Positions 10,365 through 43,943 of a stretch of DNA of 64,000 nucleotides are shown here, piece by piece (position 1 is the stretch's first letter; each line of letters starts with the position of its first letter). Below the pieces are notes generated by a model. It was given only the letters and a program-made list of their open reading frames with translations. It was not told where the DNA came from and did not search any database. This DNA comes from Candidatus Poseidoniaceae archaeon (GTDB lineage Archaea; Thermoplasmatota; Poseidoniia; Poseidoniales; Poseidoniaceae): contig JBMZTB010000002.1 of NCBI GenBank assembly GCA_049623485.1, forward strand, positions 8,446-72,445. Reading direction: 5' to 3'. The translations under genes were made by a program, and so were the position numbers.

Positions 10365-10396
10365 ATGTTTTTAATCTCTGGAAATCGATAGGTTGT

Positions 10397-12619
10397 ATGC
10401 TTCAACCTTTATGCAGCGTATGCCATCAAGATGAAACAACAAACCAATGCCCACTATGCGAGCGTTGCATTGAACTTGCACAGGAAAAAAATTGGGCTCC
10501 AGAACTCGATTTCTCTATTCACGAACAAATGGCCCAAATTCTCGGGGGGCCAATTCGCTCCTTGAAACGAAGATGGGAAAATCTGGAGCAATTCATGCTT
10601 ACAACTCCAGATGTTGACTGGGCCCGTTTACGTAACCCACAGGAAGACCCTGTACGTTATTCTCCGTTCCCAGATGTGGAAGAGGAACTCTTTGCAGAAA
10701 AATTACATTCTGGATTTGGTGTTTCTGGTTACGAAAAGGAACGATTGGAAGACGGGTATCAGATGAGCAATGGTTCAATTCTCTCCTTCAGTGAGGGGGG
10801 CATGTACATCGATGGAACTCGCCACAATGCCCAGATTCCAATCCGGCAATTCTTACTTATTCTTACTGATAAAGAAGCCAGGATTGGTTGGGATCTCGTC
10901 ATGATTTTTTTAGCAACGAGCTCATTATACCAGCCAATTCGCAAATCTGGATCGGGCGAGAGGTACATGAACCGGTATTACAATCTCTTCTTTCGTCAAA
11001 ACCGATATAATCGAATCACTCCTTTCGATTCGATGATTCAAACATCGTACGTTCTCTCTGAACACAAGAGAAAACTTGGGTTCAATTCATTTTCAAATTA
11101 TCATTGGGCAAGGAATATACTAGAACGGATCGAAGATAGACGCCCTCGCCAACGAATGAAATTCTCAAGACGATTTCTTCGAGATGGTTCGAATACTATT
11201 CTTCAGGATGCGGAATGGCCATGGGCTCGCCGTTGGGGAAATTTAAGCGCTTTAAATGAGCACAAAAACGTGCCTTCGCCGTTAACACTGAGCACCAAAG
11301 GAGAGTTGTGTTTTAGAGCGATGACAAAGAGAGGTTCGACGAGGAGAACACCTATCCCGCCCAGACCTGGATTGCTTGCAGGCTTGGTATCTTGGTGCAG
11401 TTCTCCTCATGAATCTCGAGAAGGCGAGATGCTTATTGCAACCCAAATGAACTGGTCTTCTGCTTACGAAATACAAGAGAAACTGAGTCCGCCGTTTGTG
11501 AAATCAATGCAATTTCTTCGTGGTGTTCTAAATCAATTCCCAAATGATACGTGGGTGGAGAACGATCGAATTCTTGTTCGGGGGATGATTGGTCACTTCT
11601 ATGAAATTAGATTAGAATCTGGCGCTCACAGAGCCCCATTCAAAATCCATGGAATACGTCTTGGGATCACCTCACCTCATTCATTGTGTATTCATACAGG
11701 ACACCATCATCGAAATATTCCAATCGGAGACACGATCGCAATTGTTGTGCTTTCATTAATTTCAGACGTGATTACTGCTGAAAAGGTGAACAGCCTAATG
11801 ATACATCTTCGTTCAAATGAGCCACCAGGTGAACCTCAATCGACATCTCGAATCACGCCAAAATCATTCTATTCAGGCGGTCGAGGAATACTTCCAAATT
11901 TCATGATGTTTGGCGGGCATCAAGAGTTCAACAAACATATCAAACCAGCCGATTTAGATGGGTTACAAACAATTTCTGATACTGTCTTGGTAAACGATTG
12001 GAGAATTCGGCCGACGACATTAACTGAGAGTATGTTTGACCATGAGGATATTGAATTTGGAGGGATTGATTTCGCTAGATATAATTGGGGGAATAGACGA
12101 GAAGATGCGCAATTGGTTATCGTGGAAGATCCACCGGTGGAAGTCGTTGATGTTCTGGAAAATGTAGAGGAAGACCCTGCTGAAAATCTCCGAGAAGGTG
12201 ATGGACAATTCCATCGGTGGTATCGCACAATGCCACTCGTTTGGGAAGCTCTTTCCTTACAGCCTATTGGCAACCACGTCTCTGTTGGCGGCGTTAGAGG
12301 TGTATTACGATTACAAGGATGCGGGCTTCGAATAACAATTCGAACTGCACAAGAAGAAGATTCAATCTTGCGTTTCCTAGAGATTTTGGGGTATCATTAC
12401 TCTCGTCGGCTCAATGGAGATCAGGTGTTTGTTCGACGAGATTTCCCTATCGCAAACCCAAGGCAAGAACTTCGCAATCTGTTGGGACCTCTCGAACAGG
12501 AACTTGGATTTTTCAACATTGAAAACTATGTGATTCGTTACTTAGAAGTGGGACGCCCTCCAGATAGAATGCCGGAAGTTGATCAGAGATTGCATGCGAA
12601 TTTAGTCGATCATTACTGA
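10397..12619 (+). CDS. Orphan 740-aa protein with N-terminal Cys-rich zinc ribbon
   Basis: CSVCHQDETTNQCPLCERC at the N-terminus. A central segment reads FYEIRLESGAH...SLCIHTGHHHRNIPIGDTIAIVVLSLISDVITAEKV, and an acidic stretch reads VEDPPVEVVDVLENVEEDPAE. I recognise no catalytic motif. ATG 10397 is preferred over TTG 10361. Confidence 0.55.
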   Translation: MLQPLCSVCHQDETTNQCPLCERCIELAQEKNWAPELDFSIHEQMAQILGGPIRSLKRRWENLEQFMLTTPDVDWARLRNPQEDPVRYSPFPDVEEELFAEKLHSGFGVSGYEKERLEDGYQMSNGSILSFSEGGMYIDGTRHNAQIPIRQFLLILTDKEARIGWDLVMIFLATSSLYQPIRKSGSGERYMNRYYNLFFRQNRYNRITPFDSMIQTSYVLSEHKRKLGFNSFSNYHWARNILERIEDRRPRQRMKFSRRFLRDGSNTILQDAEWPWARRWGNLSALNEHKNVPSPLTLSTKGELCFRAMTKRGSTRRTPIPPRPGLLAGLVSWCSSPHESREGEMLIATQMNWSSAYEIQEKLSPPFVKSMQFLRGVLNQFPNDTWVENDRILVRGMIGHFYEIRLESGAHRAPFKIHGIRLGITSPHSLCIHTGHHHRNIPIGDTIAIVVLSLISDVITAEKVNSLMIHLRSNEPPGEPQSTSRITPKSFYSGGRGILPNFMMFGGHQEFNKHIKPADLDGLQTISDTVLVNDWRIRPTTLTESMFDHEDIEFGGIDFARYNWGNRREDAQLVIVEDPPVEVVDVLENVEEDPAENLREGDGQFHRWYRTMPLVWEALSLQPIGNHVSVGGVRGVLRLQGCGLRITIRTAQEEDSILRFLEILGYHYSRRLNGDQVFVRRDFPIANPRQELRNLLGPLEQELGFFNIENYVIRYLEVGRPPDRMPEVDQRLHANLVDHY

Positions 12620-12624
12620 TGCAA

Positions 12625-13713
12625 TCAAACTTCTTGCCAGTCCGTTCCATTCCACCATCGGCCACTCCCATCGCTCATTTTCCTCCAGGTGTGGCCAGTC
12701 TCATCCGTCCATTCATTGAGTATTGTCGGTTCAGGTGTTGCTCCTTGCGTTTTGATTCCTTCATCAATTGTTGCAACCACTGCTTGTTGATTCTCTGAGT
12801 CCCAGGCTGAGCCTTTCTTCATCATCATGAAGGCAGCGCCCCCTATAATGACAAGAATTCCAGCGGAAAGTAAGATGAGAGTACTTGAAATGTTGAAATC
12901 TTCCTTCTCATCTTCTGAAGTACTGCCTATTTCCTTGTCAACAATTTCATGAAACATAAGATGGACTTCAAGATCAGTCCCATCGTAGGCATCTGCGTAA
13001 GTAATCGATTGAACCCCTTGACTGAATCCTGTCGAATTGATGAGATCGAGGTGAATAATTTCTCGAACGATGTGAGGGTAGTCTCCCTTTCCATTGGTTC
13101 CGTCAGCAAATGTTCCAATCTTTTCAACGACCCATAAGGACACATTGAACGAGGAATTAGTCGATTGTTCGATGCCCCAAGAAACAGTCCCCGAGTTTGC
13201 TCCTGTCGGCGTCCATGCAAAGCTAACAAAACCAGCACCAAGGTCAAGAGATTTTGCTGCTTGTTCTGTATAATCTGCCTCTAGGGAAGATCCTACAGGG
13301 ACATTCCCAGATATTGCATAAGTTCCATTGAACCCTACAATTGGAGGCTTCCATGGCAGATATGGGTCATAACGGTCCCGAAATTGAGCATCCACTGCTT
13401 CAGAACCCAATGGGTCCTCGGGATCGTTGATGTTTCTATGAATCGAATAGACCTGCATGTTCGAGGTTGATGCCACATTTTCTAGAGCCTCTTCCACGAC
13501 CAAGCACTGGCCACACCACGTCGCAGTATAATCCTCAGCAATTGTAGGGAGATCTTCCAAGGTACTGTTCAAGACAAGAGTTTCTTCAATAGGGACGTGA
13601 AGACCTCCAAATAGCATGCCAGAATCAAGTTCTTCAATCTCTGCGCCTTCAGCAGGACCGAGCAAAGATAGAGCGAAGATGATTGCGAGGGCAGTTACGC
13701 GAATGCGTGCCAT
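12625..13713 (-). CDS. Membrane-anchored extracytoplasmic thioredoxin-like protein
   Basis: Signal peptide MARIRVTALAIIFALSLLGPAEGA, thioredoxin-type motif YTATWCGQCLVVEEAL, and a C-proximal TM helix LILLSAGILVIIGGAAFMMM. A roughly 65-aa Trp-rich tail follows (WTDETGHTWRKMSDGSGRWWNGTDWQEV). Confidence 0.65.
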   Translation of the reverse strand: MARIRVTALAIIFALSLLGPAEGAEIEELDSGMLFGGLHVPIEETLVLNSTLEDLPTIAEDYTATWCGQCLVVEEALENVASTSNMQVYSIHRNINDPEDPLGSEAVDAQFRDRYDPYLPWKPPIVGFNGTYAISGNVPVGSSLEADYTEQAAKSLDLGAGFVSFAWTPTGANSGTVSWGIEQSTNSSFNVSLWVVEKIGTFADGTNGKGDYPHIVREIIHLDLINSTGFSQGVQSITYADAYDGTDLEVHLMFHEIVDKEIGSTSEDEKEDFNISSTLILLSAGILVIIGGAAFMMMKKGSAWDSENQQAVVATIDEGIKTQGATPEPTILNEWTDETGHTWRKMSDGSGRWWNGTDWQEV

Positions 13714-13758: not shown

Positions 13759-14844
13759 TCAAAGCGAGATATCGAATGCACCATTGTCATAGATTTTGCC
13801 AGCATCAATAGCATCGACCAACTTCGCCAGCCGGGACTTAATCGCGTTTCTGGTCTTGTCAGCAGCACCAGCGATAGCAGTCAATCGACTTTCAGCAACA
13901 CCAAATTTCATACATGACATTTGGAAAAGCATTGAACACAAAATTCGAGCAGGTACATTTGGTATCGGGGATTCAGACATTGTTGGCTCACCTAACTTGA
14001 AAAGTCGCTGATTCAAATCTTCCATGAGCTTGTCTTGGAGGCCCTTTTCCAAATCAGAAACGACGTTTCTCAAGCGTCGTTTCATGATTCTGATTTCCTC
14101 GGCTCTGTTTGCGAGGGCAATTTCCCTTCGGTCTATTGCAGGAGCAATAAGTTTCTTGCCATCGACTTCAACCTTCTCACAAATTGAAAAGTACTTTTCG
14201 ATGATCTTTGAGGCATCGATAACCTGCTTCATTGTGATTCCAGTGTTCTCGAGCATTGCTGCCCAATCGATGCTCATCCCGCCCCATCTTGCCTGATAAA
14301 CTCGAAGGCATCCAAGGGCTAACAGTCTCTCATTATGGTCTGTGTCAGCCCCTCTTGTCTTCATTCTACAAATAGAATTCTTTGGGAGGATGACTTCCTC
14401 TCCTTTGGCGACCTTCTTCATGTTAGCCAGGGCTTCTTCGTCCTCTACAGGCAGAGTGGCACGGGTGATGGCTGTCTTTGCCTTCATCGCATTTTCGGTT
14501 CCGCTAAGTCTTACTGCAGCATCCATAGTAGCTTGGACCATTGGGTGACAATCTTTCGCATCTCGAGCAGCGATGTTTCGCAGAATCTTCCACTTTCCTT
14601 TCGCTTCTTTCTGTGTTCCGATATAGGAACCCAAACCGTTGCCCTTATTACCGGTCTTGATTTTGGTAACTCTGGTGGTAGGAGTGTTGAAACTGTTCTC
14701 TCCCCAGATGGCTCCCGCATTGTCATTTTGGTTGGTGGAAACTTGGTGTTCAGCCACCAGCCCACAGCTCTTGCATTCGAGTTCGCCCCGTGCATTGTCC
14801 ATTTTCATGTCGTTACTTCCACATTCTTCGCATTTTTCTGTCAT
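13759..14844 (-). CDS. TFB/TFIIB-like transcription factor, divergent
   Basis: N-terminal zinc ribbon CEECGSNDMKMDNARGELECKSCGLV. Two helical cyclin-like halves follow (ERLLALGCLRVYQARWGGMSIDWAAMLENTGITMKQV; ILCSMLFQMSCMKFGVAESRLTAIAGAADKTRNAIKSRLAKL). The linker between ribbon and core is longer than in typical TFB. ATG 14844 is preferred over TTG 14889. Confidence 0.6.
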   Translation of the reverse strand: MTEKCEECGSNDMKMDNARGELECKSCGLVAEHQVSTNQNDNAGAIWGENSFNTPTTRVTKIKTGNKGNGLGSYIGTQKEAKGKWKILRNIAARDAKDCHPMVQATMDAAVRLSGTENAMKAKTAITRATLPVEDEEALANMKKVAKGEEVILPKNSICRMKTRGADTDHNERLLALGCLRVYQARWGGMSIDWAAMLENTGITMKQVIDASKIIEKYFSICEKVEVDGKKLIAPAIDRREIALANRAEEIRIMKRRLRNVVSDLEKGLQDKLMEDLNQRLFKLGEPTMSESPIPNVPARILCSMLFQMSCMKFGVAESRLTAIAGAADKTRNAIKSRLAKLVDAIDAGKIYDNGAFDISL

Positions 14845-14993
14845 TATATCGCCTTCTTCTTCCTTTAATCTGCAACAAGATTGAGCCAAACAGAACTTTG
14901 AATTCTAGTGTTTGGCGCAAGTTCGCTCGGCAGGATTACATCTATACCCTGCAACCTATTTAAACCAAACGATTCATGTTGCCCATCATAACA

Positions 14994-15012
14994 AACAAGA
15001 ATTATTCTTGTT
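14994..15012. promoter_or_regulatory. Perfect 9-bp inverted repeat in a divergent promoter region
   Basis: AACAAGAAT-t-ATTCTTGTT sits in the 297-nt region between the TFB-like gene (minus) and the addB-like gene (plus). It is a candidate operator; its function is unknown. Confidence 0.3.
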
Positions 15013-15096
15013 CTATTTTTAGAAACTAGATGAAAGAGTGAAAGAGATCAACAATTTCCTTATTGATCAAAAAATAACAAAACGGAATGAGTTTCC

Positions 15097-15103
15097 TTTT
15101 ATA
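15097..15103 (+). promoter_or_regulatory. TATA-box-like element upstream of the addB-like gene
   Basis: gagtttccTTTTATAccc lies about 42 nt upstream of ATG 15142. A GGGGGAG SD-like motif sits at 15128-15134. Confidence 0.35.
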
Positions 15104-15141
15104 CCCTCGGTATTCTTGTAGAGAACTGGGGGAGAAAGATA

Positions 15142-18100
15142 ATGCAGAACGTTACTGTTGAAGCATGCTCTGCTTCTACCTTAGTACCTCAATGGCTCTT
15201 ACAACATCTTGAAGGTGGAACAAATAATCTCATGATTATCTATCCCAACGAAACCGTTCGAGAAGGTGCGTTGAAGCATCTGAGCACCGTCTGCGGAGCA
15301 ATTGATTCCAGCCGCCATACTACACTTAATCGGCTTTGTACATCACTGCAGATGGACTTCAGGTTTCCAGTTATAATTCCAAGATCTACGATAGGGATTG
15401 TTCAAGTCAACAAGATATTCTCTCATGCTGCTTCTGAGTTTAGATTCCCTAGAATGCATCCTGATGCTTCTCGAAAGTGGTCGTTGTCCAAAACCGAGCG
15501 ATTACTTCAATTGCACCGTTTCTCTACGACGCATGACATTATCTCAAAATGGGATGATGACCCAGGTGTATCAGAGGCCGATAACCTTCTTTCTTCGTTT
15601 AAGAAATCGAATCTTCTCCATGAACACCACGTCATAGAAGAATTAACCAACGCACTTTTAGACTCTGACACTCAAATTCCATATTCTTTATCGACAGTGG
15701 ATGGTATCCTTTTATTGAATCACCCTCCAGATTTCTTCAGCAATGAAAAGAGGCTTTTGAATGCCATAGCCTCAAGAGTTCCGATCCATCATTTGTGCGT
15801 GCAAGGATCTTTCCGTCTTGGACTGCATGGAGCTTATATCGATGATGAAATCCAATACGTGAAATCTGAAAAGGAATTGCCTGACTGGATTCCAAAGCAT
15901 ACCCTTTCTCCCATAGTTGAAGATGAGATTAGGACTGAAGGTATTCACCTTGTATCTTTTGACCAAGCATCCCAAGTTCTCGATGCCGCTTTATCCGCAA
16001 TTCGTATTTATCGACAACATCACTCTGGTAAGATTTTGGTCATTGATGCAGATCAAAACCGCAGAAGTGTTTGGAAACGCAGACTCCAGCAAATAGGCTT
16101 AGATTGTGATGCAGGTACTGAAACCGTTGGCTCAACTTCAGCAGTTCAAGCAGTACTACGCTTCCTTTCAATTGCTGACGGACAAGATGCTTGGTCTGGC
16201 AATAAGTTGTTTGACATCATTCAGTCGCAAGCATTCCCAATTATTGAAAACCTTCTCGCTAATCTATCCCACCCAGTGAATGGGGGTTGGAAGCCTAAAC
16301 CAAATCTCGATGTTTTGGAAAACATAGGCAGAAGCTTCCATGTCATCGGAGGAAATGGGGCTCTTTTCCGCTGGCTTGGTTCGTTATCAGTTGCAACTCC
16401 TTCGTCCTCAGAACCTTACCGAAAAGAGGCAGAAGAGCAGGCAATAGAAGAAACGAGATGGTGGCTCTATTCTCTTGCAAGAGTCTGGGCTCCATTCTTA
16501 GATTCTGAGGCACAAACGTTCATACAGGAACCGTTGATTAGTAGTCTAAGTGGTGTTGAACTTCCACTTCCAAAGGTGAACTCTGGTCATAGAGATGTTC
16601 TTGCTGATCTTCTAAAGGCATGTGAATGGGGGCAACTGTTCAATCGTACTTCGATCTATGATCACTCGATTGGGGGTTTGCAGTCTTGGATTCAAACGAT
16701 TGACTCAATATTACAATACGATTCAGACGTTGATTTCCTTGATATTTGTAAGCTATCAGCAAATCAAACCAACCTCCCTCCAACCCGAATTCGTCATTCT
16801 GATGTAAAAATATGTACGCCAGAACAAGCATATGGAGCACAGGCAGATATCGTCATGTTCGTTGGCATAGACTCCGAATCATGGTCGATGAAACCCCCAA
16901 GAGTGCCTTGGATTGATGATGCCGTAAGAGTTCAACTTGGATTAAATGATTCAGATCATCCAATTCGTCGTGGGCGCCATGTATTCAAATCCTTATTGTC
17001 AACGTGTAATTCTGCGATATTATTCGATACGAAACACGATGAATCTGCTGGAAACTCAACGCCTGTTGCAGAATATTTAGCAGAGATTGAACTTTCAGGA
17101 AAATTATCGAAACTCTCTATCCCCCCTGATTTCTTAATAGATTCAATCTCATCAGGCGCTGGTTGGTCATTCGTAACGCGTGAAGATGGGAACTGGCTGA
17201 CATACAAGAGTTCTGCTTTGGTCTTAGAAGGAAATAATGTCGAGTTACTCCGCGCAGAAAACCTCCCTAGAGACCGCCGACAACGAACAGGCCTCGCTCT
17301 GAAATCAGGCGCAACTCCTGAGGTAAACATTCGCTCACCAACCTCTCTTGTGATAGGAGCAGAAAAGCAACTAAATCTAGATCGATATCGAAGACAACCA
17401 AAGTTCAAAGCAACTGAAAAAGAAGAAGCAATGCCGTGGACTTACAGAGAGAATCTTCTCTCAGTCGACGGGCTCGTCCTTGCACCCTCATTAGGTCAAG
17501 CCAATACTGGAGGGGGAAGAACAGTTGACAATTGGCCGCATCTTGGATACAAAAAGAATGGGAATTCTAGAGGGCCTTCAATCGATCCAAGGCCTCTTCC
17601 CCCAATCTCGTCTATGTCTGCTTCAATCTCATCCATATGGACTACAAATCAACGAAGTGAAGACGATAAGATTTGGTCTACAAACAGACTCACTCCATGG
17701 ATTAATTGCCCTCGTTTAGCTTGGTCTGAACAGATACTGAAAGCGAAGGAAGTAGAGCCAGAGGTATCTGAAGACCTTGCGCCACTTGCCCGCGGAACGT
17801 TGGTTCATTCGATAGAAGAACATCTTCTCTCGTTGCTTGGAGTCAACGTTGGCGATAGACCTCTAGAAGAGGGCACTCCAATGCATATTGGCCTTGACAT
17901 TCCATTAGAGCAGATTTGGGAATCCCTACTGCATCATTTGTCACACCTTGCACCTTGGCTTTCGCGAACAAATGCAGTCTCTGTCCATCGATGCAACGAT
18001 TTGATTGGATGTTCTCCAGAGGAATGGTCTCAATGGCTTGAAGGAGAAAAAATTCCGCAAATTGGTGGGCGCCTAGGACAACTCTTGCTTGCAGATTTTG

Positions 18101-18816
18101 CCTTGGTTGCTGCAGGACCAATTGCTTCAGAGTGGTCGCTTGAATCTGAAGCTGGAAGATTTATCGAACTCAACGGACTAGACGATCAACTTGATTCAGC
18201 GATGTTGAAGATTTACGGCCGAATTGACAGAGTCGATGCACTCGTCCTTGATGCCGAATTACTTGATCAGGTGTCTGAAAAGGGGCTAGTTGATGATGGT
18301 GCAGGTTTGATTCCTCTAAATTTCGATGGTGAAGGACCTTCTGCGAGTCGATTTATTATCATCAGAGATTTGAAAACAATCGAAGGACCAGATCCTAAAA
18401 AGATTGGATTACGCCATGCAGGAGGGCTGTTTAAAGAAATTCAACTTGCTCTCTATGCTCGTGCTTGGGAGATTGCCCATCCTGGTGATCGGGTCATCGG
18501 TGTGGGTATTTCGGAAGTTGGAGATACAACGCGTCATTTTGTAGAACTTGACCCAGCTTTTGCATTTATTCCCGAAGAGGCAAACATAGGTGAAAGAACA
18601 TCATTTTCCAGCCATCATTATAGAGTCCCTGGTGAGGCAAATACGCCAACGAGTAATCCATTTAGGGCGTGGATGAGCTCTCGTCTTACTACTGCAATTC
18701 GAGCAAAAAATGCAAGCGATTCTGGATGGAATCACCCAACTCCGGGCAAACATTGCACCTATTGTTCACTTGCAAATTCTTGTCCTTCAGCCTCGATAGG
18801 AGTTGATGTGAAATGA
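15142..18816 (+). CDS. addB: AddB-like subunit: degenerate helicase-like N-region plus C-terminal PD-(D/E)XK nuclease with Fe-S cysteines
   Basis: I found no GxxxxGK[ST] P-loop. AddB/RecB-like DIVMFVGIDSESW is present. Nuclease module: WINCPRLAW, GTLVHSIEE, GRIDRVDAL, IIIRDLKT, QLALYARAW, and CTYCSLANSC at 18754-18783 (C-x2-C-x5-C, the AddB/Cas4 4Fe-4S spacing). Confidence 0.75.
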   Translation: MQNVTVEACSASTLVPQWLLQHLEGGTNNLMIIYPNETVREGALKHLSTVCGAIDSSRHTTLNRLCTSLQMDFRFPVIIPRSTIGIVQVNKIFSHAASEFRFPRMHPDASRKWSLSKTERLLQLHRFSTTHDIISKWDDDPGVSEADNLLSSFKKSNLLHEHHVIEELTNALLDSDTQIPYSLSTVDGILLLNHPPDFFSNEKRLLNAIASRVPIHHLCVQGSFRLGLHGAYIDDEIQYVKSEKELPDWIPKHTLSPIVEDEIRTEGIHLVSFDQASQVLDAALSAIRIYRQHHSGKILVIDADQNRRSVWKRRLQQIGLDCDAGTETVGSTSAVQAVLRFLSIADGQDAWSGNKLFDIIQSQAFPIIENLLANLSHPVNGGWKPKPNLDVLENIGRSFHVIGGNGALFRWLGSLSVATPSSSEPYRKEAEEQAIEETRWWLYSLARVWAPFLDSEAQTFIQEPLISSLSGVELPLPKVNSGHRDVLADLLKACEWGQLFNRTSIYDHSIGGLQSWIQTIDSILQYDSDVDFLDICKLSANQTNLPPTRIRHSDVKICTPEQAYGAQADIVMFVGIDSESWSMKPPRVPWIDDAVRVQLGLNDSDHPIRRGRHVFKSLLSTCNSAILFDTKHDESAGNSTPVAEYLAEIELSGKLSKLSIPPDFLIDSISSGAGWSFVTREDGNWLTYKSSALVLEGNNVELLRAENLPRDRRQRTGLALKSGATPEVNIRSPTSLVIGAEKQLNLDRYRRQPKFKATEKEEAMPWTYRENLLSVDGLVLAPSLGQANTGGGRTVDNWPHLGYKKNGNSRGPSIDPRPLPPISSMSASISSIWTTNQRSEDDKIWSTNRLTPWINCPRLAWSEQILKAKEVEPEVSEDLAPLARGTLVHSIEEHLLSLLGVNVGDRPLEEGTPMHIGLDIPLEQIWESLLHHLSHLAPWLSRTNAVSVHRCNDLIGCSPEEWSQWLEGEKIPQIGGRLGQLLLADFALVAAGPIASEWSLESEAGRFIELNGLDDQLDSAMLKIYGRIDRVDALVLDAELLDQVSEKGLVDDGAGLIPLNFDGEGPSASRFIIIRDLKTIEGPDPKKIGLRHAGGLFKEIQLALYARAWEIAHPGDRVIGVGISEVGDTTRHFVELDPAFAFIPEEANIGERTSFSSHHYRVPGEANTPTSNPFRAWMSSRLTTAIRAKNASDSGWNHPTPGKHCTYCSLANSCPSASIGVDVK

Positions 18817-21800
18817 TTCCTTTCAATCGGAGCCAACGCTTGGGCCTGAATCTTGATCAACACATTGCATTGGATGCAGGGGCGGGAACAGGAAAAACAA
18901 CCGTCATGGCAGAACGCTATGTTCAACACCTCCTTTCCTCTGAACAAAGAGCAACTTGCGTACTGCCAGCGCCATTGCGGAATGAGCCGTATGGTGCTGG
19001 ACGAATAAAGGCTGCAAAGAAAGACAGAACTCCATTGAATGAATGGAAAGGGCTCCTGCCCCAAGAAATTGTAGCTATTACGTTTACAAGGAAAGCTGCT
19101 GCTGAATTGCGTTCAAGAATACGCAGTAGGATTCAATCTCTTCGAGCAGAGCCCGTAAAAAAGGCTGACCGCTTGGGAATTCATGACCCGCGCCTTAGAC
19201 ATCAAGGTGATGTCTCAATGCTCATGTCGTTGCTCGAAGCAGCCCCGATTTCGACGATTGACTCCTTCTTAGGTGAAGTTCTTGCACCTCACATCGACCT
19301 TGTTGCATTGCATTTGAGCAGAGATCAATTGCCAGATGAGCAAGCTCCCTTATTGAGAACCCAAGCGCTCAACGCAGCCTGGAGAATCCGCAATGCAAGA
19401 GATGGATTTGAAGCCGGGCTGACAAAGTCCTGTGAAGAATTCATTGAAGCTCGAAACCGTCTTGCTATTCGGCTTGGAGGACAATCCTCGGCTCAAACTG
19501 TTCTCACTGGTTTGCTTGAATCCTCATTATTTGTTGAAGAGTCAAAACGAAGATTACGAGCAAGATCAATTCGAAACGAATTACCATGGGACGGTTCCTC
19601 ACCTCCCGATTACCTTCTCATTGAGGATATGATTCTCGAGCGCTGCGGGCATCTTATTGATGGAGTAGTAGAAGATGCATATGATTACTTGAATCAATGG
19701 GTTGAAGTATTTACAAAAGATGGCCGCCATGCATTTTTGGTGAATCCAAGCGGTGCTCCAAATGAAAACACTCGCTTCAATCAACTGTCACAATTAGCAA
19801 GAGATCCACTCCCAACAACTCCAATTTCCAGACTTCAATGGATTCATCAGGTGATTGTATCTCTCTGTTCTCCTGGTCAAGTAGAGAAATCGACTCCAAC
19901 CATTTTGAATTCTGGTGGATTTCATAGCCAAATAATAGGAGGTTGGCATTCAGGTCTTGTCAAATGGTCAAGTGTCTCTTTCCCTGGAATTACTCAAAAA
20001 GAGTCCAAAGCCATCACAAAGGAAATTCAGAATGAAGCCAAGGAAGCAGCAACATTGCTTCGTAATCGTTTCCACAATCCAGAAGATGGTCGTCTCCTGC
20101 TGATGCTTTCACGAGCTTCTTATGCTCTTAACCCCCTTCGTGATTTTGACTTCAGAGATGCGAACGAAAAATACGATGTCACAGCACTTGGAACTTCACC
20201 TTGCCGAGATCCACCAGAAGGAAATTTACGAGTATCGAGAGACCTCCAGGTAGAGGTGCTTGACGATTTATACACTGTACATGCTGGTTGCCAAGATCTT
20301 CTCCGTCACCTCAAGGCTCAAGAAGAGGCTCATGATTTCGATGATGTTCAGTTAATGGTGGGCGATTTACTCCTCGTTCGCTGCCCAGAAATTGTTCGAC
20401 ATTGGTACCCTCCACAAGCGGTTCAAGCTTTGGATGACTTAGGAGAAGAAGCATGGGCTGATGAGCACATTCGGAGAGCGTTAAGTTTGATGCAAGGCGA
20501 TGAAGAAAAACAAAATGATCTTCGAAGAAGATATGCTCTTCTGCAGCAAATACGCGCAAGATATGGGGCGTTTATCATCGATGAATATCAGGATACGAAC
20601 CCAGAGCACGCGCGTCTTCTTGCACGGCTGTGGGGCCATAGGAATGACGGGGCTGATGAAACACCAAATCCACTTGGTCCTTGGGATCCGACAGTCTGTA
20701 TTGTTGGCGATATGAAGCAGAGCATCTATCGATTTAGACAGGCCGAAGTTACTGTAATGCGTCGAATGGTTGCCTCCATTCGACTCGCTAATCGCTTGGA
20801 AGAACATGAACCAAGGATGGAGCACATCATAGAGCAAGGACATGGGCGGGACCCTAGACCAGTTGGTGCGGGGGGGGAAACAGGTTCTTTCATCCAAGCA
20901 AGTGAAATTTCTTCCGATGAATCATCCGCAACATGGGATTATGTATCGTTTGGAATCAATGACTTTGGTACGGCAATAGATGACCTTGTTGTTCTTCAAC
21001 GTCAAGAAGGACACATTGAATTAACAACAAACTTCCGTACAGCCCCACGTTTACTTAACACCTTGAACCATATTTTTGATGACACATTTTCTGAACGTCA
21101 CCATCAATTCCCAGGAGATTTTCATGCCACCGCCCAACCCCTCCACGCAGGTAGAGAGACCGATAGGGACGGTGTGATTGAATGGCTATTGCCAACTCAA
21201 ACTGAAATAGATGCTCTTCCATTGGAATTGGGAGCAGGATACCATCTCTTTGATTCAGAATCTGCGAACCCACGACACCTTGAACACGAACTCATAGCTG
21301 CAAGATTAGATTCTCTTGTGAGAGGTCATGCAACTCGATTATGGTCTTCCGAAGAACAAGAATACGTTGATATTGAGCCAGAGGATGTTATATCTCCTGA
21401 AGATGTCATGATCCTAGTTCACTCAAGGAAGCACATCCCTGATTTGATTAAGAGATTACAAAATCGAGGTTTACCAGTTTTAGCAGATAAGCAAGGCCAA
21501 CTCCTGCAACAACCAGTCGTCAAACCTCTGCTCTCTGTCCTCTCCCTTCTGGCGAAACCATCTTCACGATTGGCTGCACATGGGCTTGTCCGTTCTCCAA
21601 TAGTTGGAGCAACATCAATTCAAATTGAAGAGATATTTGAACAGAATGACGTTGAGAATTATTGGAATCATATTTCCACATATTTCGGAGAGTCATTGAC
21701 TGGAAATCTTCTTTCGCTCCTCTCACAACTGATCGAAAAAGGGGCTCTCCACGAAATATTTGATGTTGTACTGGACTATAGCGATCTTTTGACGACGTAT

Positions 21801-23786
21801 CCAGACGAATCAGAGCGACAGGTTGCTGAGACCTGGTGTGCATTGTTGTACAAAATTGGCACAGAATGCGGACATGAGCCAAGCGCTATGCTCGCCAAGA
21901 TGAATGCCCTAGCTTCCCTTGAAAACAAAGGACCTCAGGCAACATCTTCACCAACGAGTGGTGCGATTCAAATTATGACAATCCATGGAGCGAAGGGATT
22001 ACAGGCACCTGTTGTGATCGTAACAGGATTGTTTGAAGCAGGTAGACGCAGCTCAAGCAATGATGCTCAAAAGAATGTCTTAATTACGCCTGATGTTATT
22101 GCAGGAAGAATACAACCATGGAAGTCAAAGGATAAGCCACTTGATGGCCTTTGGATGCTTGCAAACCAAATGAATAAGGCTCAGAATTTAGCCGAGTTGC
22201 GACGGCAATTCTATGTCGCCCTCACCAGAGTTCGAGATCGCCTTATCTTCGCAGGATCTCCTTCAAAGACAAGTGCGATGTCATCCGATGGATTCATTTT
22301 GGCAACAGGCAATATTTCTGGAAATAATATGGGTGATTTACTCTTGGATGGGCTGCGTTACATGGGTGTCAACTCAAATGTTGAACAACCATGGAGCCTA
22401 GAGGGCGATACTCAAGGTCAGCGATTAAGCGAGTATGAGAGCATCGAACTAATTCTTGATCCATTGAACGTCTTTACATCATCAGGCTTCACATCTGATT
22501 CAGTACTGGGTGCCAGAATTTATCACCATCCAAATTGTTTTGCTCAACAAACACCAGTATCAGTTCTCAATGAATGGCTTGAAGTCGAATCTCGTTTAGA
22601 TTATCAGGTTGACGAAGCTTCTGCAAACGAAATTGTAACGATTTCTCCGTCGCTTAAAATGACCGCACATGGCTTGGATGCGGCGAATTCCTGCCGCAGA
22701 AGATTCTGGTTAAATCAGGTGCGAGGCTGGCAAACCGAGCCCTTCAATATCGAATATATTGCAAGAATCAACCCTTCTGAAGAGGAACCGAAAGATCGAA
22801 CTGGTGGCGAGGATTATGATGGTGATGCGTATACTGGTTGGCCTTCTGCAACCTCATTCGGTTCAATGTTCCACCGCCTAGTTGAGATTGGTCTAGCAAA
22901 TCCAGCGACCATGAAATCAAAGGAATTCCCTCTTTCTTCCGAGTGGCTAAACGGCCAAGAAAATCGATTGCTTGAAACGAAAGAAATTGATGATGCAATT
23001 ACCTCAGAGCCAGAGTGGCATAACTTATCCTTTGATGAACAACAACAGACCCGTGAGAGGATTATCGAACTTGCCCAATTACTGTCAAACGGCTTGTTAG
23101 GAAAATTAACCGATGGAGAAGAAGTAAACGGACAGTCTGTGGAAGGGTTACAAACGGAAGCCTCGTTTTACTTCACAAGAGATGTTGAACTAAGCGAAGT
23201 TTATTCGAATCCAACATTAGGTCTTTCTCAAACGATCGTAACTCAAATTGAGAATGTTGCTATCACGTTTGAAGGCCAAGCAGACATTGTCTTAGCAGGT
23301 TGTGAAGAATCCGAAAAATGGCTTCAAGTTGTTGACCTGAAAACCTCTGGTTCGAGAACAGATGACCTGTCTGAGCATCCTTTGCAGAAGGAAATTGAAG
23401 ATTGGAATTCATCCACTCCACAAAATGCAGAAGAAGTTGAGATGTTACGAAATCACCGACTACAACTCACGCTTTATTCAATGGTATTTTACAAGCAAGA
23501 ATCCTTGAAATCAGCAGATGAGCGTCGAACGATTAAACCCCCTGCTCTTCTCATTAGTACATCCGGAAGGCTTGTTCAGATGCCCGTTGAGATGTACGAA
23601 GAAGCTCAAAATGAACTCTCAATCCTTCTCGAATGGATTGCGAGGTTAACAGCAAATGCAGATGGAGTTAGCGAGCCGAAAAGGCTTCCAATGGATTCAA
23701 TCGATACCTGCAAAAAATGCCCATTTTACAAAGGAGAACTTCGAATGTGCGGGCCTGATGGTGTCGATTTAGGGATTGATGTTTAA
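18813..23786 (+). CDS. addA: AddA-like subunit: UvrD/Rep SF1 helicase fused to a RecB/Cas4-type nuclease (1657 aa)
   Basis: Helicase motifs LDAGAGTGKTTV, AITFTRKAAAELRSRI, FIIDEYQDTN (20580-20594), IVGDMKQSIYRFRQAE, TNFRTAP, TIHGAKGLQAPVVIV and FYVALTRVRDRLIF. C-terminal nuclease: SCRRRFWL, GSMFHRLVE, GQADIVL, VVDLKTS, LQLTLYS and CKKCPFYKGELRMC (23709-23750). An ATGA start/stop overlap links it to the upstream gene. Confidence 0.85.
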   Translation: MIPFNRSQRLGLNLDQHIALDAGAGTGKTTVMAERYVQHLLSSEQRATCVLPAPLRNEPYGAGRIKAAKKDRTPLNEWKGLLPQEIVAITFTRKAAAELRSRIRSRIQSLRAEPVKKADRLGIHDPRLRHQGDVSMLMSLLEAAPISTIDSFLGEVLAPHIDLVALHLSRDQLPDEQAPLLRTQALNAAWRIRNARDGFEAGLTKSCEEFIEARNRLAIRLGGQSSAQTVLTGLLESSLFVEESKRRLRARSIRNELPWDGSSPPDYLLIEDMILERCGHLIDGVVEDAYDYLNQWVEVFTKDGRHAFLVNPSGAPNENTRFNQLSQLARDPLPTTPISRLQWIHQVIVSLCSPGQVEKSTPTILNSGGFHSQIIGGWHSGLVKWSSVSFPGITQKESKAITKEIQNEAKEAATLLRNRFHNPEDGRLLLMLSRASYALNPLRDFDFRDANEKYDVTALGTSPCRDPPEGNLRVSRDLQVEVLDDLYTVHAGCQDLLRHLKAQEEAHDFDDVQLMVGDLLLVRCPEIVRHWYPPQAVQALDDLGEEAWADEHIRRALSLMQGDEEKQNDLRRRYALLQQIRARYGAFIIDEYQDTNPEHARLLARLWGHRNDGADETPNPLGPWDPTVCIVGDMKQSIYRFRQAEVTVMRRMVASIRLANRLEEHEPRMEHIIEQGHGRDPRPVGAGGETGSFIQASEISSDESSATWDYVSFGINDFGTAIDDLVVLQRQEGHIELTTNFRTAPRLLNTLNHIFDDTFSERHHQFPGDFHATAQPLHAGRETDRDGVIEWLLPTQTEIDALPLELGAGYHLFDSESANPRHLEHELIAARLDSLVRGHATRLWSSEEQEYVDIEPEDVISPEDVMILVHSRKHIPDLIKRLQNRGLPVLADKQGQLLQQPVVKPLLSVLSLLAKPSSRLAAHGLVRSPIVGATSIQIEEIFEQNDVENYWNHISTYFGESLTGNLLSLLSQLIEKGALHEIFDVVLDYSDLLTTYPDESERQVAETWCALLYKIGTECGHEPSAMLAKMNALASLENKGPQATSSPTSGAIQIMTIHGAKGLQAPVVIVTGLFEAGRRSSSNDAQKNVLITPDVIAGRIQPWKSKDKPLDGLWMLANQMNKAQNLAELRRQFYVALTRVRDRLIFAGSPSKTSAMSSDGFILATGNISGNNMGDLLLDGLRYMGVNSNVEQPWSLEGDTQGQRLSEYESIELILDPLNVFTSSGFTSDSVLGARIYHHPNCFAQQTPVSVLNEWLEVESRLDYQVDEASANEIVTISPSLKMTAHGLDAANSCRRRFWLNQVRGWQTEPFNIEYIARINPSEEEPKDRTGGEDYDGDAYTGWPSATSFGSMFHRLVEIGLANPATMKSKEFPLSSEWLNGQENRLLETKEIDDAITSEPEWHNLSFDEQQQTRERIIELAQLLSNGLLGKLTDGEEVNGQSVEGLQTEASFYFTRDVELSEVYSNPTLGLSQTIVTQIENVAITFEGQADIVLAGCEESEKWLQVVDLKTSGSRTDDLSEHPLQKEIEDWNSSTPQNAEEVEMLRNHRLQLTLYSMVFYKQESLKSADERRTIKPPALLISTSGRLVQMPVEMYEEAQNELSILLEWIARLTANADGVSEPKRLPMDSIDTCKKCPFYKGELRMCGPDGVDLGIDV

Positions 23787-28919: not shown

Positions 28920-28928
28920 GTGATTGAA

Positions 28929-43884: not shown

Positions 43885-43943
43885 GGGTTCTAATGCGTTC
43901 TTCTCACTATTTGAATGCGGTGTCTTATTGATAGAACAATACT

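What the first reader, a model, noticed from the sequence alone, without database searches (positions are those of the whole stretch)
15142..23786. Bacterial-style AddAB/AdnAB-like helicase-nuclease pair, with Fe-S nuclease modules on both subunits, in an archaeal genome
Two ORFs of 1224 and 1657 aa are translationally coupled by an ATGA overlap at 18813-18816.

ORF2 has a complete UvrD/Rep SF1 motif set (GAGTGKTT, TFTRKAAAELRSRI, IIDEYQDTN, IVGDMKQSIYRFRQAE, TNFRTAP, TIHGAKGLQAPVVIV, YVALTRVRDRL). A RecB/Cas4-type nuclease follows (CRRRFWL, GSMFHRLVE, GQADIVL, VVDLKTS, QLTLYS, CKKCPFYKGELRMC).

ORF1 has no P-loop that I can find. It does have the AddB hallmarks: DIVMFVGIDSESW, then NCPRLAW, GTLVHS, GRIDRVD, IIIRDLKT, QLALYA and CTYCSLANSC. 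The last is C-x2-C-x5-C, the cysteine spacing of the AddB/Cas4 4Fe-4S cluster.

Archaeal end resection upstream of RadA is canonically done by Mre11-Rad50-HerA-NurA, and radA itself is in this window at 62249-63286. A dual-nuclease AddAB/AdnAB-type machine here is therefore unexpected. ORF2 is also about 400 aa longer than typical AddA, with long insertions between helicase motifs.

The pair could be a horizontally acquired repair machine or a defence-type helicase-nuclease. It is transcribed divergently from a non-canonical TFB-like gene.
Basis: partly seen in the sequence, partly recalled or inferred. Interest (0 to 1): 0.7.

Follow-up and report, generated by a model that had tools for sequence, protein, structure and literature searches.

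The report
Divergent AddAB-type helicase-nuclease in marine archaea
Two overlapping genes in this Marine Group II (Poseidoniales) archaeal genome encode a very divergent version of the bacterial AddAB DNA-break-processing machine; it is kept in the same chromosomal place across the whole order, so these abundant ocean archaea probably prepare broken DNA ends for their RadA recombinase with a bacterial-type enzyme that nobody has studied.

Summary

- **ORF2** is an AddA/RecB-like SF1A motor with a C-terminal RecB-family nuclease.
- **ORF1** matches no AddB model by sequence. Its predicted structure, however, hits B. subtilis AddB first (Foldseek E 1.6e-20) and mycobacterial AdnA second. Its family profile aligns over its full length with haloarchaeal AddB-like proteins (hhalign 97.9%).
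- ORF1 has no P-loop, so the pair is AddAB-type and not the dual-motor AdnAB type.
- Nuclease catalytic residues are invariant in both subunits. The four-cysteine "iron staple" is invariant in ORF1 and present in about 90% of ORF2 relatives. Solved AddAB and AdnAB carry Fe-S on one subunit only.
- The host is a Poseidoniales archaeon. The pair occurs in 272 species-representative genomes, always adjacent, in a conserved housekeeping neighbourhood (MCM ... PS decarboxylase). dN/dS is 0.04-0.09.

The pair is therefore an old, vertically kept core system, not a recent transfer or a defence island. AddAB-like pairs also sit on 51 haloarchaeal plasmids, so archaeal AddAB is not unique. I call it a new variant of a known kind, of moderate interest. 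Function is inferred, not shown.

The parts
14890..15141 (+). Intergenic region upstream of ORF1, shared with the divergent TFB-like gene. It holds a TATA-like TTTATA at 15098-15103, 44 nt before the ATG, and a GGGGGAG purine run just before the start codon.
   Evidence: Read directly from the sequence. Promoter function is inferred, not tested.
15142..18816 (+). ORF1, the AddB-like subunit (1224 aa).
   Evidence: ORF confirmed. AF2 model pLDDT 77. Foldseek top hits are AddB chains 4ceh_B/4cei_B/3u4q_B (E 1.6e-20 to 8e-17), then AdnA 6ppj_A. hhalign against haloarchaeal AddB-like proteins gives 97.9%. dN/dS 0.07-0.09.
15142..17301 (+). ORF1 residues 1-720: degenerate SF1 helicase-like lobes with no Walker A or B. 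The DIVMFVGIDSESW motif lies at residues 569-581.
   Evidence: The model shows alternating beta/alpha RecA-like lobes that align to the AddB, AdnA, UvrD and PcrA helicase folds. The loop after strand 1 reads SASTLVP, and no invariant G/K exists in the family. There are faint addB_alphas hits over residues 530-633, and also in the relative P0190.
17302..17667 (+). ORF1 residues 721-842: low-confidence, probably flexible linker.
   Evidence: pLDDT is below 50 for 721-745 and 753-842.
17668..18813 (+). ORF1 residues 843-1224: RecB-family nuclease with a four-cysteine staple. Cysteines are C856, C1205, C1208 and C1214 (C-x2-C-x5-C). Catalytic positions are H889, D1029, D1076, K1078, Q1101 and Y1105.
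   Evidence: Pfam PDDEXK_1 E 6e-10. All ten positions are invariant in 18 and 41 family sequences and in the deep relatives. The nuclease profile matches the haloarchaeal AddB nuclease at 97.8%, E 7.6e-13.
18813..18816 (+). ATGA start/stop overlap that couples ORF1 and ORF2.
   Evidence: The same overlap is present in L001, L002, L018 and L081. An ORF2 homolog lies directly downstream in 77 of 80 loci; the other 3 are cut by contig ends.
18813..23786 (+). ORF2, the AddA-like subunit (1657 aa).
   Evidence: Pfam finds UvrD-helicase, UvrD_C, AAA_19 and PDDEXK_1. NCBIfam scores: addA_Gpos 161 bits, recB 137, addA_alphas 125. The best PDB sequence match is AddA 3u44_A, E 8e-32 with the family profile. 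dN/dS 0.04-0.05.
18813..22262 (+). ORF2 residues 1-1150: SF1A (UvrD/AddA-type) motor with a complete motif set and about 240 aa of insertions.
   Evidence: K28, D590, E591, Q636, R640, R742 and R1139 are invariant in 121 sequences. Insertion sizes come from the profile alignment to AddA.
22665..23783 (+). ORF2 residues about 1285-1657: RecB-family nuclease of the cysteine-stapled (Dna2/AddB/Cas4-like) kind. Cysteines are C1294, C1633, C1636 and C1646 (C-x2-C-x9-C). Catalytic positions are H1354, D1491, D1508, K1510, Q1551 and Y1555.
   Evidence: Catalytic positions are 121/121. Cysteines are 116, 118, 120 and 110 of 121, and are kept in the deep relatives L081 and L087. The AF2 model has pLDDT 77.6. 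Foldseek top hits are Dna2 5ean_A (2e-5), RecB, AddB chain B and Cas4.

Best explanation
The two genes encode the subunits of an AddAB-type heterodimeric helicase-nuclease that is a core chromosomal system of Poseidoniales (Marine Group II) archaea.

**Proposed mechanism (inferred by homology to B. subtilis AddAB).**
1. The complex binds a double-strand DNA end.
2. ORF2, the only ATPase, translocates 3'->5' on the 3'-ended strand and unwinds the duplex.
3. That strand passes over ORF1's dead helicase-like lobes, which in AddB hold the Chi-recognition site, to ORF2's own C-terminal nuclease.
4. The displaced 5'-ended strand is cut by ORF1's C-terminal nuclease.
5. A four-cysteine (presumably 4Fe-4S) staple holds each nuclease domain together. 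In ORF1 it probably also splits the strands at the fork.
6. The product would be a 3' single-stranded tail for the RadA recombinase.

**Shown here:** gene structure, domain architecture, fold similarity, conservation of catalytic and cysteine residues, operon conservation, purifying selection and taxonomic spread.

**Inferred:** complex formation, strand polarity, Fe-S occupancy, any Chi-like regulation and hand-off to RadA.
For: **Architecture**
- B-like gene upstream of A-like gene with an ATGA overlap.
- Adjacent in 77 of 80 loci; the rest are cut by contig ends.

**A subunit**
- All SF1A motifs are invariant in 121 sequences.
- Best matches are AddA models and the AddA structure.

**B subunit**
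- The model's best structural matches over its whole length are AddB chains (E 1.6e-20), then AdnA.
- Profile-profile match to haloarchaeal AddB-like proteins: 97.9%, E 5e-13, 933 columns.
- Those haloarchaeal proteins hit addB_Gpos (E 2e-21), addB_alphas and rexB models.

**Nucleases**
- Catalytic H, D, D-x-K and Q-x3-Y are invariant in both subunits.
- The cysteine quartet is invariant in ORF1 and present in about 90% of ORF2 relatives, including the deepest ones.
- The ORF2 nuclease model is most like the Fe-S nucleases Dna2, AddB and Cas4, plus RecB.

**Housekeeping role**
- 272 species-representative genomes encode the B subunit; the 80 best kept are Poseidoniales apart from three bins labelled as bacteria, probably mis-binned.
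- A conserved MCM-GatE ... PS-decarboxylase neighbourhood is kept even in relatives with 25% identity.
- dN/dS is 0.04-0.09.
- Base composition is flat across the locus.
- No defence-specific PADLOC hit.
- radA is in the same window.
Against: - There are no biochemical, genetic or expression data.
- Both proteins score far below the NCBIfam AddA/AddB equivalog cutoffs: 161 against 708 bits, and 16 against 486 bits.
- ORF1 has no sequence-level PDB match, even with a family profile. Its assignment therefore rests on a predicted structure (pLDDT 77, pTM 0.56) and one transitive profile link.
- The heterodimer was not modelled.
- 13 of 121 ORF2 relatives have lost one or more cysteines, so the second metal site is dispensable in some lineages.
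- I could not test whether Poseidoniales also have Mre11-Rad50-HerA-NurA. The physiological weight of this system is therefore unknown.
- Bacterial AddAB hands over to RecA. Cooperation with RadA is unprecedented and purely inferred.
Confidence: 0.72

Rival explanations
1. The pair is primarily a defence nuclease. It would degrade linear foreign (viral) DNA in the way RecBCD/AddAB do in bacteria, or act as an accessory to restriction-like systems as proposed for UvrD-Cas4 fusions, rather than serve recombinational repair.
For: - The haloarchaeal plasmid homologs often lie beside BREX or methyltransferase/PglZ-type genes.
- UvrD plus a Cas4-like nuclease is a defence-linked architecture in the literature (PMC5704561).
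- ORF2 gives generic GajB/UvrD hits in PADLOC.
- Bacterial RecBCD/AddAB do both jobs (established knowledge).
Against: - In Poseidoniales the pair sits in a fixed housekeeping neighbourhood (MCM, GatE, beta-eliminating lyase, methyltransferase, PS decarboxylase) in every locus examined.
- It occurs in 272 species-representative genomes under strong purifying selection. Defence genes are usually patchy and mobile.
- ORF1 has no PADLOC hit, and the ORF2 hits are only to the shared UvrD core.
- No restriction, methylase or BREX partner is adjacent. The neighbouring methyltransferase is a small generic SAM-MTase on the opposite strand.
Confidence: 0.13
2. The pair is a helicase-nuclease for another DNA transaction, such as processing reversed or stalled replication forks, degrading over-replicated DNA at termination, or recycling nucleotides from DNA. 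Canonical archaeal Mre11-Rad50 (with or without HerA-NurA) would still do break resection.
For: - It is a core, housekeeping-type gene pair.
- RecBCD also acts at reversed forks and termini in bacteria (PMC7776575 text).
- Nothing here links the pair physically or genetically to radA, which lies 38 kb away on the other strand.
Against: These roles use the same biochemical activity and in bacteria are carried out by the same enzyme that does break repair. This is therefore a difference of emphasis, not of mechanism. No specific evidence favours it.
Confidence: 0.12
3. The pair is an AdnAB-type dual-motor machine, with both subunits binding and hydrolysing ATP, or a RecBC-like pair in which ORF1 is a RecC-like scaffold with a dead nuclease.
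For: AdnA (6ppj_A, E 1e-13) and RecC chains also appear among the structural matches of ORF1. AdnB appears among the ORF2 sequence matches.
Against: - ORF1 has no Walker A or B and no conserved helicase motifs in 41 sequences. AdnA binds nucleotide (PMC13000450).
- ORF1's nuclease catalytic residues and cysteine quartet are invariant, unlike RecC.
- AddB chains outrank AdnA and RecC.
- No recD-like gene is adjacent.
Confidence: 0.03

Closest known systems
Bacillus subtilis AddAB (PDB 3U4Q, 4CEH and related entries)
   Same: - Two-gene unit with the B gene upstream of the A gene (the B. subtilis gene order is from my own knowledge, not tested here).
- The A subunit is an SF1A motor plus a RecB-family nuclease.
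- The B subunit has dead helicase-like lobes plus a RecB-family nuclease with a C...C-x2-C-x5-C quartet.
- It is the best structural match for ORF1 and the best sequence match for the ORF2 motor.
   Different: - About 10% identity for ORF1, with no sequence-level hit.
- Both proteins score far below the AddA/AddB equivalog cutoffs.
- ORF1 has no Walker A motif. B. subtilis AddB keeps one (my own knowledge, not tested here).
- ORF2 carries a cysteine quartet, whereas the reviews read here place the Fe-S cluster in AddB only (PMC3378879).
- ORF2 is about 400 aa longer.
- The host recombinase is RadA, not RecA.
AddB-like + AddA-like gene pairs on haloarchaeal plasmids (e.g. Halobacterium salinarum PHS3, Halapricum pHSR-Est01)
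   Same: - Archaeal host.
- Overlapping B-then-A gene pair.
- The B subunit has no GKT P-loop and has C...C-x2-C-x5-C.
- The B family is homologous to ORF1 over its full length (hhalign 97.9%).
- The A subunit is 27% identical to ORF2 over the motor region (E 4e-38).
   Different: - The haloarchaeal proteins are much closer to bacterial AddAB: addA_alphas 340 bits and addB_Gpos 75 bits.
- They are shorter, at about 1020-1100 and 1210-1255 aa.
- Their A subunits have no C-terminal cysteine cluster.
- They are plasmid-borne, patchy, and often beside BREX or defence genes, not in a fixed chromosomal core.
Mycobacterial AdnAB (PDB 6PPJ, 6PPR, 9NP6)
   Same: - Heterodimer of two UvrD-like-fold plus RecB-nuclease subunits.
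- The Fe-S cluster is in the non-motor subunit AdnA, at the fork junction (PMC13000450).
- AdnA is the second-best structural match for ORF1.
   Different: - AdnA keeps nucleotide-binding motifs and binds AMPPNP. ORF1 has none.
- In the structures described, only AdnA has an Fe-S cluster.
E. coli RecBCD
   Same: The RecB motor plus nuclease resembles ORF2 (recB model 137 bits). RecC, like ORF1, is a helicase-fold scaffold with no ATPase motifs.
   Different: - RecBCD has three subunits and a second motor, RecD.
- The RecC nuclease-like domain is inactive (my own knowledge, not tested here), whereas ORF1's catalytic residues are invariant.
- No recD gene is adjacent.
- RecC ranks below AddB and AdnA in the structure search.
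UvrD-Cas4 fusion proteins of bacteria and mesophilic archaea (Hudaiberdiev et al. 2017, PMC5704561)
   Same: ORF2 has the same domain string: a UvrD-like SF1 helicase followed by a cysteine-bearing PF12705 nuclease.
   Different: Those fusions are described as stand-alone or linked to type III restriction-modification or Dcm-Vsr genes. ORF2 always has an AddB-like partner, and its motor is closest to AddA.
Eukaryotic Dna2 nuclease domain (PDB 5EAN)
   Same: It is the best structural match of the ORF2 C-terminal domain (E 2e-5). Both are RecB-family nucleases with one cysteine before and three after the catalytic core.
   Different: In Dna2 the nuclease is N-terminal to an SF1B 5'->3' helicase (my own knowledge, not tested here). 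Identity is 12%. There is no evidence of direct descent.

Membership tests
AddAB-type helicase-nuclease (AddA + AddB) | Two adjacent, co-oriented genes, with the B-like gene directly upstream of the A-like gene. | tested here: met
   ATGA overlap at 18813-18816. Adjacent in 77 of 80 related loci; the other 3 are truncated.
AddAB-type helicase-nuclease (AddA + AddB) | The A subunit is an SF1A UvrD-like motor with a complete motif set. | tested here: met
   Pfam UvrD-helicase and UvrD_C. K28, D590/E591, Q636, R640, R742 and R1139 are invariant in 121 sequences. The best PDB match is AddA.
AddAB-type helicase-nuclease (AddA + AddB) | The A subunit has a C-terminal RecB-family nuclease with catalytic D ... 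D-x-K. | tested here: met
   PDDEXK_1 at E 3e-7. H1354, D1491, D1508, K1510, Q1551 and Y1555 are 121/121.
AddAB-type helicase-nuclease (AddA + AddB) | The B subunit has an inactivated helicase-like fold followed by a RecB-family nuclease. | tested here: met
   The AF2 model (pLDDT 77) matches AddB chains best over its full length (E 1.6e-20). hhalign to AddB-like proteins gives 97.9% over 933 columns. The catalytic residues are invariant.
AddAB-type helicase-nuclease (AddA + AddB) | The B subunit has a four-cysteine 'iron staple' (C ... C-x2-C-x5-C) binding a 4Fe-4S cluster. | tested here: inconclusive
   C856, C1205, C1208 and C1214 are invariant with the canonical spacing. Actual metal binding cannot be tested with these tools.
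AddAB-type helicase-nuclease (AddA + AddB) | Scores above the curated equivalog cutoffs of the NCBIfam AddA/AddB models (TIGR02785, TIGR02784, TIGR02773, TIGR02786). | tested here: not met
   ORF2 scores 161 bits against a cutoff of 708 and 125 against 861. ORF1 scores 16 bits against 486.5. The pair belongs to the same superfamily and architecture but lies outside the curated bacterial families.
AddAB-type helicase-nuclease (AddA + AddB) | ATP-dependent unwinding and dual-strand degradation of linear dsDNA, regulated by a Chi sequence. | not testable with these tools
   This needs purified protein or genetics. No Chi search was attempted, because it needs complete genomes with known replication direction.
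AdnAB-type (dual motor-nuclease) | Both subunits keep the UvrD-like nucleotide-binding motifs. | tested here: not met
   ORF1 has no Walker A or B. The loop after strand 1 reads SASTLVP, and no invariant G/K is found in 41 sequences.
RecBCD | Three subunits including an SF1B RecD motor, with a catalytically dead RecC nuclease-like domain. | tested here: not met
   No recD-like gene is in the neighbourhood. The ORF1 nuclease residues are invariant. RecC ranks below AddB and AdnA.
UvrD-Cas4 fusion / defence-island helicase-nuclease | Stand-alone fusion protein, or one embedded in restriction-modification, Dcm-Vsr or other defence contexts. | tested here: not met
   ORF2 is always paired with the AddB-like gene. 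The neighbours are housekeeping genes. ORF1 has no PADLOC hit.

The most novel reading that the evidence does not exclude
Poseidoniales, among the most abundant archaea in the surface ocean, would use a bacterial-type AddAB machine as their main long-range end-resection system. It would feed a eukaryote-like RadA recombinase, supplementing or replacing HerA-NurA.

This lineage of the machine is a distinct architectural class. Both nuclease domains are stapled by Fe-S clusters and the B subunit is a completely nucleotide-free scaffold.

This reading would also predict a Chi-like regulatory sequence in an archaeal genome.
Probability: 0.3. Interest if true: 0.75.

Novelty: new variant of a known kind. 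Interest (0 to 1): 0.55.

Why it matters
The textbook view is that RecBCD/AddAB initiate recombination in Bacteria, while Archaea use Mre11-Rad50 with HerA-NurA (e.g. PMC12977600). Some mesophilic archaea, such as Haloferax volcanii, lack HerA-NurA (PMC7776575). What carries out long-range resection in those archaea is therefore unsettled.

Here an AddAB-type machine is a fixed, strongly constrained core gene pair of an entire, globally abundant archaeal order. It lies in the same window as radA. If it is active, it would be a natural case of a bacterial-type resection machine working with a Rad51-like recombinase. It would also be a third structural flavour of the AddAB/AdnAB family, with cysteine staples on both nucleases and a B subunit stripped of nucleotide binding.

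The result also shows that current annotation ('PD-(D/E)XK nuclease family protein', 'hypothetical protein') hides this system in hundreds of archaeal genomes and haloarchaeal plasmids.

Tried and rejected
1. Sequence searches of ORF1 against PDB found nothing relevant, either with the single sequence or with an 18-sequence profile. Only structure prediction and profile-profile comparison linked it to AddB.
2. PADLOC gave nothing for ORF1 and only generic UvrD-core (GajB, DRT helicase) hits for ORF2. I rejected these as evidence for defence.
3. The first profile search of the 1.84-billion-protein library failed because the profile exceeded 1200 positions. I repeated it with residues 61-1224. 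The 150 hits listed were full-length sequences or fragments matching within the profile. The named clusters I looked up were Poseidoniales. No recognisable bacterial AddB bridge appeared in that list; hits ranked 151-447 were not visible.
4. A homolog search with the deepest relative, P0189, returned only itself.
5. I tested whether ORF2's cysteine-stapled nuclease is a recent copy of ORF1's nuclease. It is not: hhalign gives 6% probability. Its weak best match is the haloarchaeal AddA nuclease (27%, E 7e-4).
6. C1242 of ORF2 was considered as a possible cluster ligand and rejected. It is invariant in Poseidoniales but absent from the deep relatives, and it lies in a low-confidence stretch of the model.
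7. Literature searches for Marine Group II or Poseidoniales together with AddAB, Rad50, DNA repair or RadA found no description of the pair. Cromie 2009 is not held and is known here only through a citing sentence.
8. tblastn of ORF2 against plasmids was meant to fetch bacterial AddAB for comparison. It returned only haloarchaeal plasmids, which turned out to be informative.
9. I could not search whole Poseidoniales genomes for mre11, rad50, herA or nurA. No such genes were seen among the window ORFs I scanned against Pfam.


Full report

Yes. The window has an ATG-started ORF of 1224 aa at 15142-18816 (+) and one of 1657 aa at 18813-23786 (+). The junction reads ...GTGAAATGATTC..., so the ORF2 ATG overlaps the ORF1 TGA.

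Pfam finds UvrD-helicase (E 4e-33), UvrD_C (9e-22), AAA_19 and PDDEXK_1 (3e-7, residues 1346-1638) in ORF2. In ORF1 it finds only PDDEXK_1 (6e-10, residues 1071-1215). radA at 62252-63286(-) is confirmed (Rad51 domain, E 2.5e-86).

Base composition is flat across the locus, at 43-46% G+C like the rest of the window.

**2. Whose genome is it, and how widespread is the pair?**

The closest relatives of both proteins come from Candidatus Poseidoniales/Poseidoniaceae (Marine Group II archaea). Identity ranges from 92-94% down to about 30% for ORF1 and about 42% for ORF2 within the listed hits.

A scan of one genome per GTDB species with the ORF1 family profile found 272 genomes that encode a relative. 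The best 80 are all Poseidoniales (Poseidoniaceae, Poseidonia, Thalassarchaeaceae), apart from three bins labelled as bacteria that are probably mis-binned. In 77 of those 80 loci an ORF2 homolog lies immediately downstream. The other three loci end at the contig edge.

The flanking genes recur around the pair in most loci:
- a 752-aa and a 362-aa protein of unknown function;
- the zinc-ribbon 'TFB-like' protein;
- a small SAM methyltransferase;
- an alpha/beta hydrolase;
- PS decarboxylase.

The wider window is ordinary core chromosome: MCM, GatE, pyruvate kinase, malic enzyme, isocitrate dehydrogenase, FtsZ and RadA.

A profile search of 1.84 billion cluster representatives returned 447 hits (88 at E<=1e-30). 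The 150 listed were full-length sequences or fragments matching within the profile, and the named clusters I looked up were Poseidoniales. Two of the most divergent full-length relatives were examined:
- P0189, on a 3.0-Mb contig with 71% G+C;
- P0190, on a 136-kb contig.

Both still sit in the same MCM-GatE ... pair ... PS decarboxylase block. The genes overlap at the junction (4 nt in L081 and L087, 10 nt as called in L088). This holds even though GatE in L081 is only 47% identical, and its ORF1 and ORF2 homologs only 26-28% identical, to the window's.

dN/dS against close relatives is 0.07-0.09 for ORF1 and 0.04-0.05 for ORF2.

Conclusion: this is an old, vertically inherited, strongly constrained core gene pair of the order and its nearest relatives. 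It is not a recent acquisition or a mobile island.

**3. What is ORF2?**

ORF2 is an AddA/RecB-class SF1A motor-nuclease. Its best NCBIfam models are addA_Gpos (161 bits), recB (137) and addA_alphas (125). All are far below the equivalog cutoffs of about 700-860 bits.

Its best solved-structure relative by sequence is B. subtilis AddA: E 2.5e-17 alone and 8e-32 with a family profile. That is ahead of UvrD1, AdnB, UvrD and RecB.

Conservation across 121 family members:
- Motor residues K28 (Walker A), D590/E591 (Walker B), Q636, R640, R742 and R1139 are invariant.
- Nuclease residues H1354, D1491, D1508, K1510, Q1551 and Y1555 are invariant.

The extra length of about 400 aa relative to AddA (1232 aa) is spread over four places (coordinates):
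- about +35 aa between motifs I and Ia;
- about +137 aa in the 1B region;
- about +70 aa between motifs III and IV;
- about +160 aa after motif VI.

**4. What is ORF1?**

By sequence alone ORF1 is almost an orphan:
- It has no PDB match, either alone or as a profile.
- It has no PADLOC hit.
- It has only a 16-bit trace of addB_alphas over residues 530-633, the stretch that includes DIVMFVGIDSESW. The distant relative P0190 shows a similar trace.

An AlphaFold2 model of residues 1-1200, built from 41 family sequences (mean pLDDT 77), shows three parts:
- two alpha/beta lobes with helical inserts (residues 1-720);
- a disordered linker (721-842);
- a compact C-terminal domain.

Foldseek against the PDB puts the five AddB chains of the B. 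subtilis AddAB structures first, aligned over the whole length at about 10% identity (E 1.6e-20 to 8e-17). AdnA follows (1e-13), then AdnB, UvrD, PcrA and Rep, with RecC and RecB lower.

There is independent profile-level support. The ORF1 family aligns to a family of haloarchaeal 'PD-(D/E)XK nuclease family proteins' with 97.9% probability (E 5e-13) over 933 columns, from N- to C-terminus. Those haloarchaeal proteins in turn hit the addB_Gpos (E 2e-21), addB_alphas and rexB models. The nuclease domains alone match at 97.8%.

ORF1 has no Walker A or B. After the first strand the loop reads SASTLVP, and no glycine or lysine is conserved there in 41 sequences. The 'motif II' strand ends in LNHPPDF. 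Its nuclease residues H889, D1029, D1076, K1078, Q1101 and Y1105 are invariant, as are the cysteines C856, C1205, C1208 and C1214 (C-x2-C-x5-C). This holds even in the 26%-identical relatives.

ORF1 is therefore an AddB-type subunit: a dead helicase scaffold plus a live, cysteine-stapled nuclease. It is neither AdnA-like (nucleotide-binding) nor RecC-like (dead nuclease).

**5. Are there Fe-S modules on both subunits?**

ORF2 has one cysteine before the nuclease core (C1294) and three after it (C1633, C1636, C1646). The spacing is C-x2-C-x9-C here and in 109 of 120 relatives, and C-x2-C-x7-C in L087. Occupancy is 116, 118, 120 and 110 of 121. All four are kept in the deepest relatives, so the quartet is ancestral to this clade. 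13 of 121 sequences have lost at least one cysteine.

A model of ORF2 residues 1150-1657 (pLDDT 77.6, high around both cysteine sites) is most similar to:
- the Fe-S nuclease of Dna2 (E 2e-5);
- RecB (4e-4);
- the AddB nuclease (7e-4);
- Cas4.

AddA chains are absent from the 50 matches listed.

In the systems described in the literature I could read, only one subunit carries the cluster. That subunit is AddB in AddAB (PMC3378879) and AdnA in AdnAB (PMC13000450). The five haloarchaeal AddA-like proteins I examined have no C-terminal cysteine cluster.

The ORF2 nuclease is not a recent copy of the ORF1 nuclease (hhalign 6%). Its weak best match is the haloarchaeal AddA nuclease (27%, E 7e-4).

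The double quartet is therefore real at the sequence level and distinctive. Metal binding remains an inference.

**6. How it most likely works**

This section is inferred from AddAB.
1. The heterodimer binds a duplex end.
2. ORF2, the sole ATPase, pulls the 3'-ended strand 3'->5'.
3. That strand passes across ORF1's inactive lobes, the place where AddB reads Chi, to ORF2's nuclease.
4. The 5'-ended strand goes to ORF1's nuclease, whose staple probably sits at the fork.
5. The outcome is a 3' tail for RadA.

Whether a Chi-like signal exists, and whether RadA is loaded actively, is unknown.

**7. Rival readings**

- **A primary role in defence.** This is suggested by the haloarchaeal plasmid contexts, which include BREX genes next to the pair in Natrinema and methyltransferase/PglZ/DUF499 genes in Haloplanus. 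It is also suggested by the literature on UvrD-Cas4 fusions. The Poseidoniales pair, however, has a fixed housekeeping context, order-wide presence and no defence partner.
- **A role at replication forks or termini.** This uses the same chemistry and cannot be separated from break repair here.
- **AdnAB-type or RecBC-type architectures.** These fail on tested features (section 4).

**8. Comparison with what is known, and novelty**

The canonical view places RecBCD/AddAB in Bacteria and Mre11-Rad50 with HerA-NurA in Archaea (PMC12977600). HerA-NurA are reported absent from Haloferax volcanii (PMC7776575).

Archaeal AddAB is not wholly new:
- A 2009 phylogenomic survey is cited as suggesting transfer of addAB 'even into the archaea' (the paper itself is not held).
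- I found AddB-like + AddA-like overlapping pairs on 51 haloarchaeal plasmids, including Halobacterium salinarum PHS3.

What I found in no held paper is the Poseidoniales lineage. It is chromosomal and order-wide, is far outside the curated AddA/AddB families, has a nucleotide-free B subunit and a cysteine-stapled A-subunit nuclease, and carries about 400 aa of insertions.

I therefore classify it as a new variant of a known kind.

**9. Limits**

- There are no experimental data of any kind.
- The heterodimer was not modelled.
- No phylogeny against bacterial AddAB was built.
- Whole Poseidoniales genomes could not be searched for mre11, rad50, herA or nurA. The claim that this pair is the main resection machine therefore remains open.

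Noticed in passing
window 35617-43947 (-): A 2776-aa ORF with no Pfam hit at E<=1e-4: a giant protein of unknown nature, lying between a 256-aa ORF (34822-35592) and pyruvate kinase.
   Followed up: no
window 54746-58132 (+): A 1128-aa ORF with no Pfam hit.
   Followed up: no
window 13759-14889 (-): The 'TFB-like' gene divergent from ORF1 has only an N-terminal TFIIB zinc-ribbon hit, below Pfam's cutoff (27.4 against 29 bits), and no cyclin-fold hit. A homolog is found in 53 of 80 Poseidoniales loci.
   Followed up: partly
window 28920-30893 (+): A 657-aa protein with a C-terminal EF-hand pair (E 2.7e-9). The rest of the protein is unassigned.
   Followed up: no
L082-L086 (haloarchaeal plasmids NZ_CP104004.1, NZ_CP064792.1, NC_010368.1, NZ_CP031151.1, NZ_CP100447.1): 51 haloarchaeal plasmids carry an AddB-like gene. 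In all five loci examined it overlaps a downstream AddA-like gene. The pair is annotated only as 'PD-(D/E)XK nuclease family protein' + 'UvrD-helicase domain-containing protein'. Some pairs lie next to BREX-type genes (L085, L086), and one lies next to Mre11/Rad50-like genes (L083). The A subunits lack the cysteine cluster.
   Followed up: partly
L081 (ENA ERZ26167216, 3.0-Mb contig, range 2865113-2888607): An unnamed relative with 71% G+C keeps the MCM-GatE ... pair ... PS decarboxylase-radical SAM synteny, although GatE is only 47% identical. It is probably a complete genome of a deep sister lineage. A homolog search with its B subunit found only itself.
   Followed up: partly
L016, L023, L051: Genome bins labelled Salipiger bermudensis, Rhodobiaceae and Verrucomicrobiales contain contigs with Poseidoniales-type ORF1 homologs (57%, 60% and 36% identity). 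This is most likely binning contamination in public MAGs.
   Followed up: no
window 22536-22538 (ORF2 residue C1242): A fifth cysteine is invariant in 121 of 121 Poseidoniales ORF2 sequences. It is not conserved in the deep relatives, and it lies in a low-confidence stretch of the model. Its role is unexplained.
   Followed up: partly
window 10361-12619 (+) and 12625-13713 (-): Two proteins (752 aa and 362 aa) without Pfam hits have homologs in 51 and 61 of the 80 loci.
   Followed up: no
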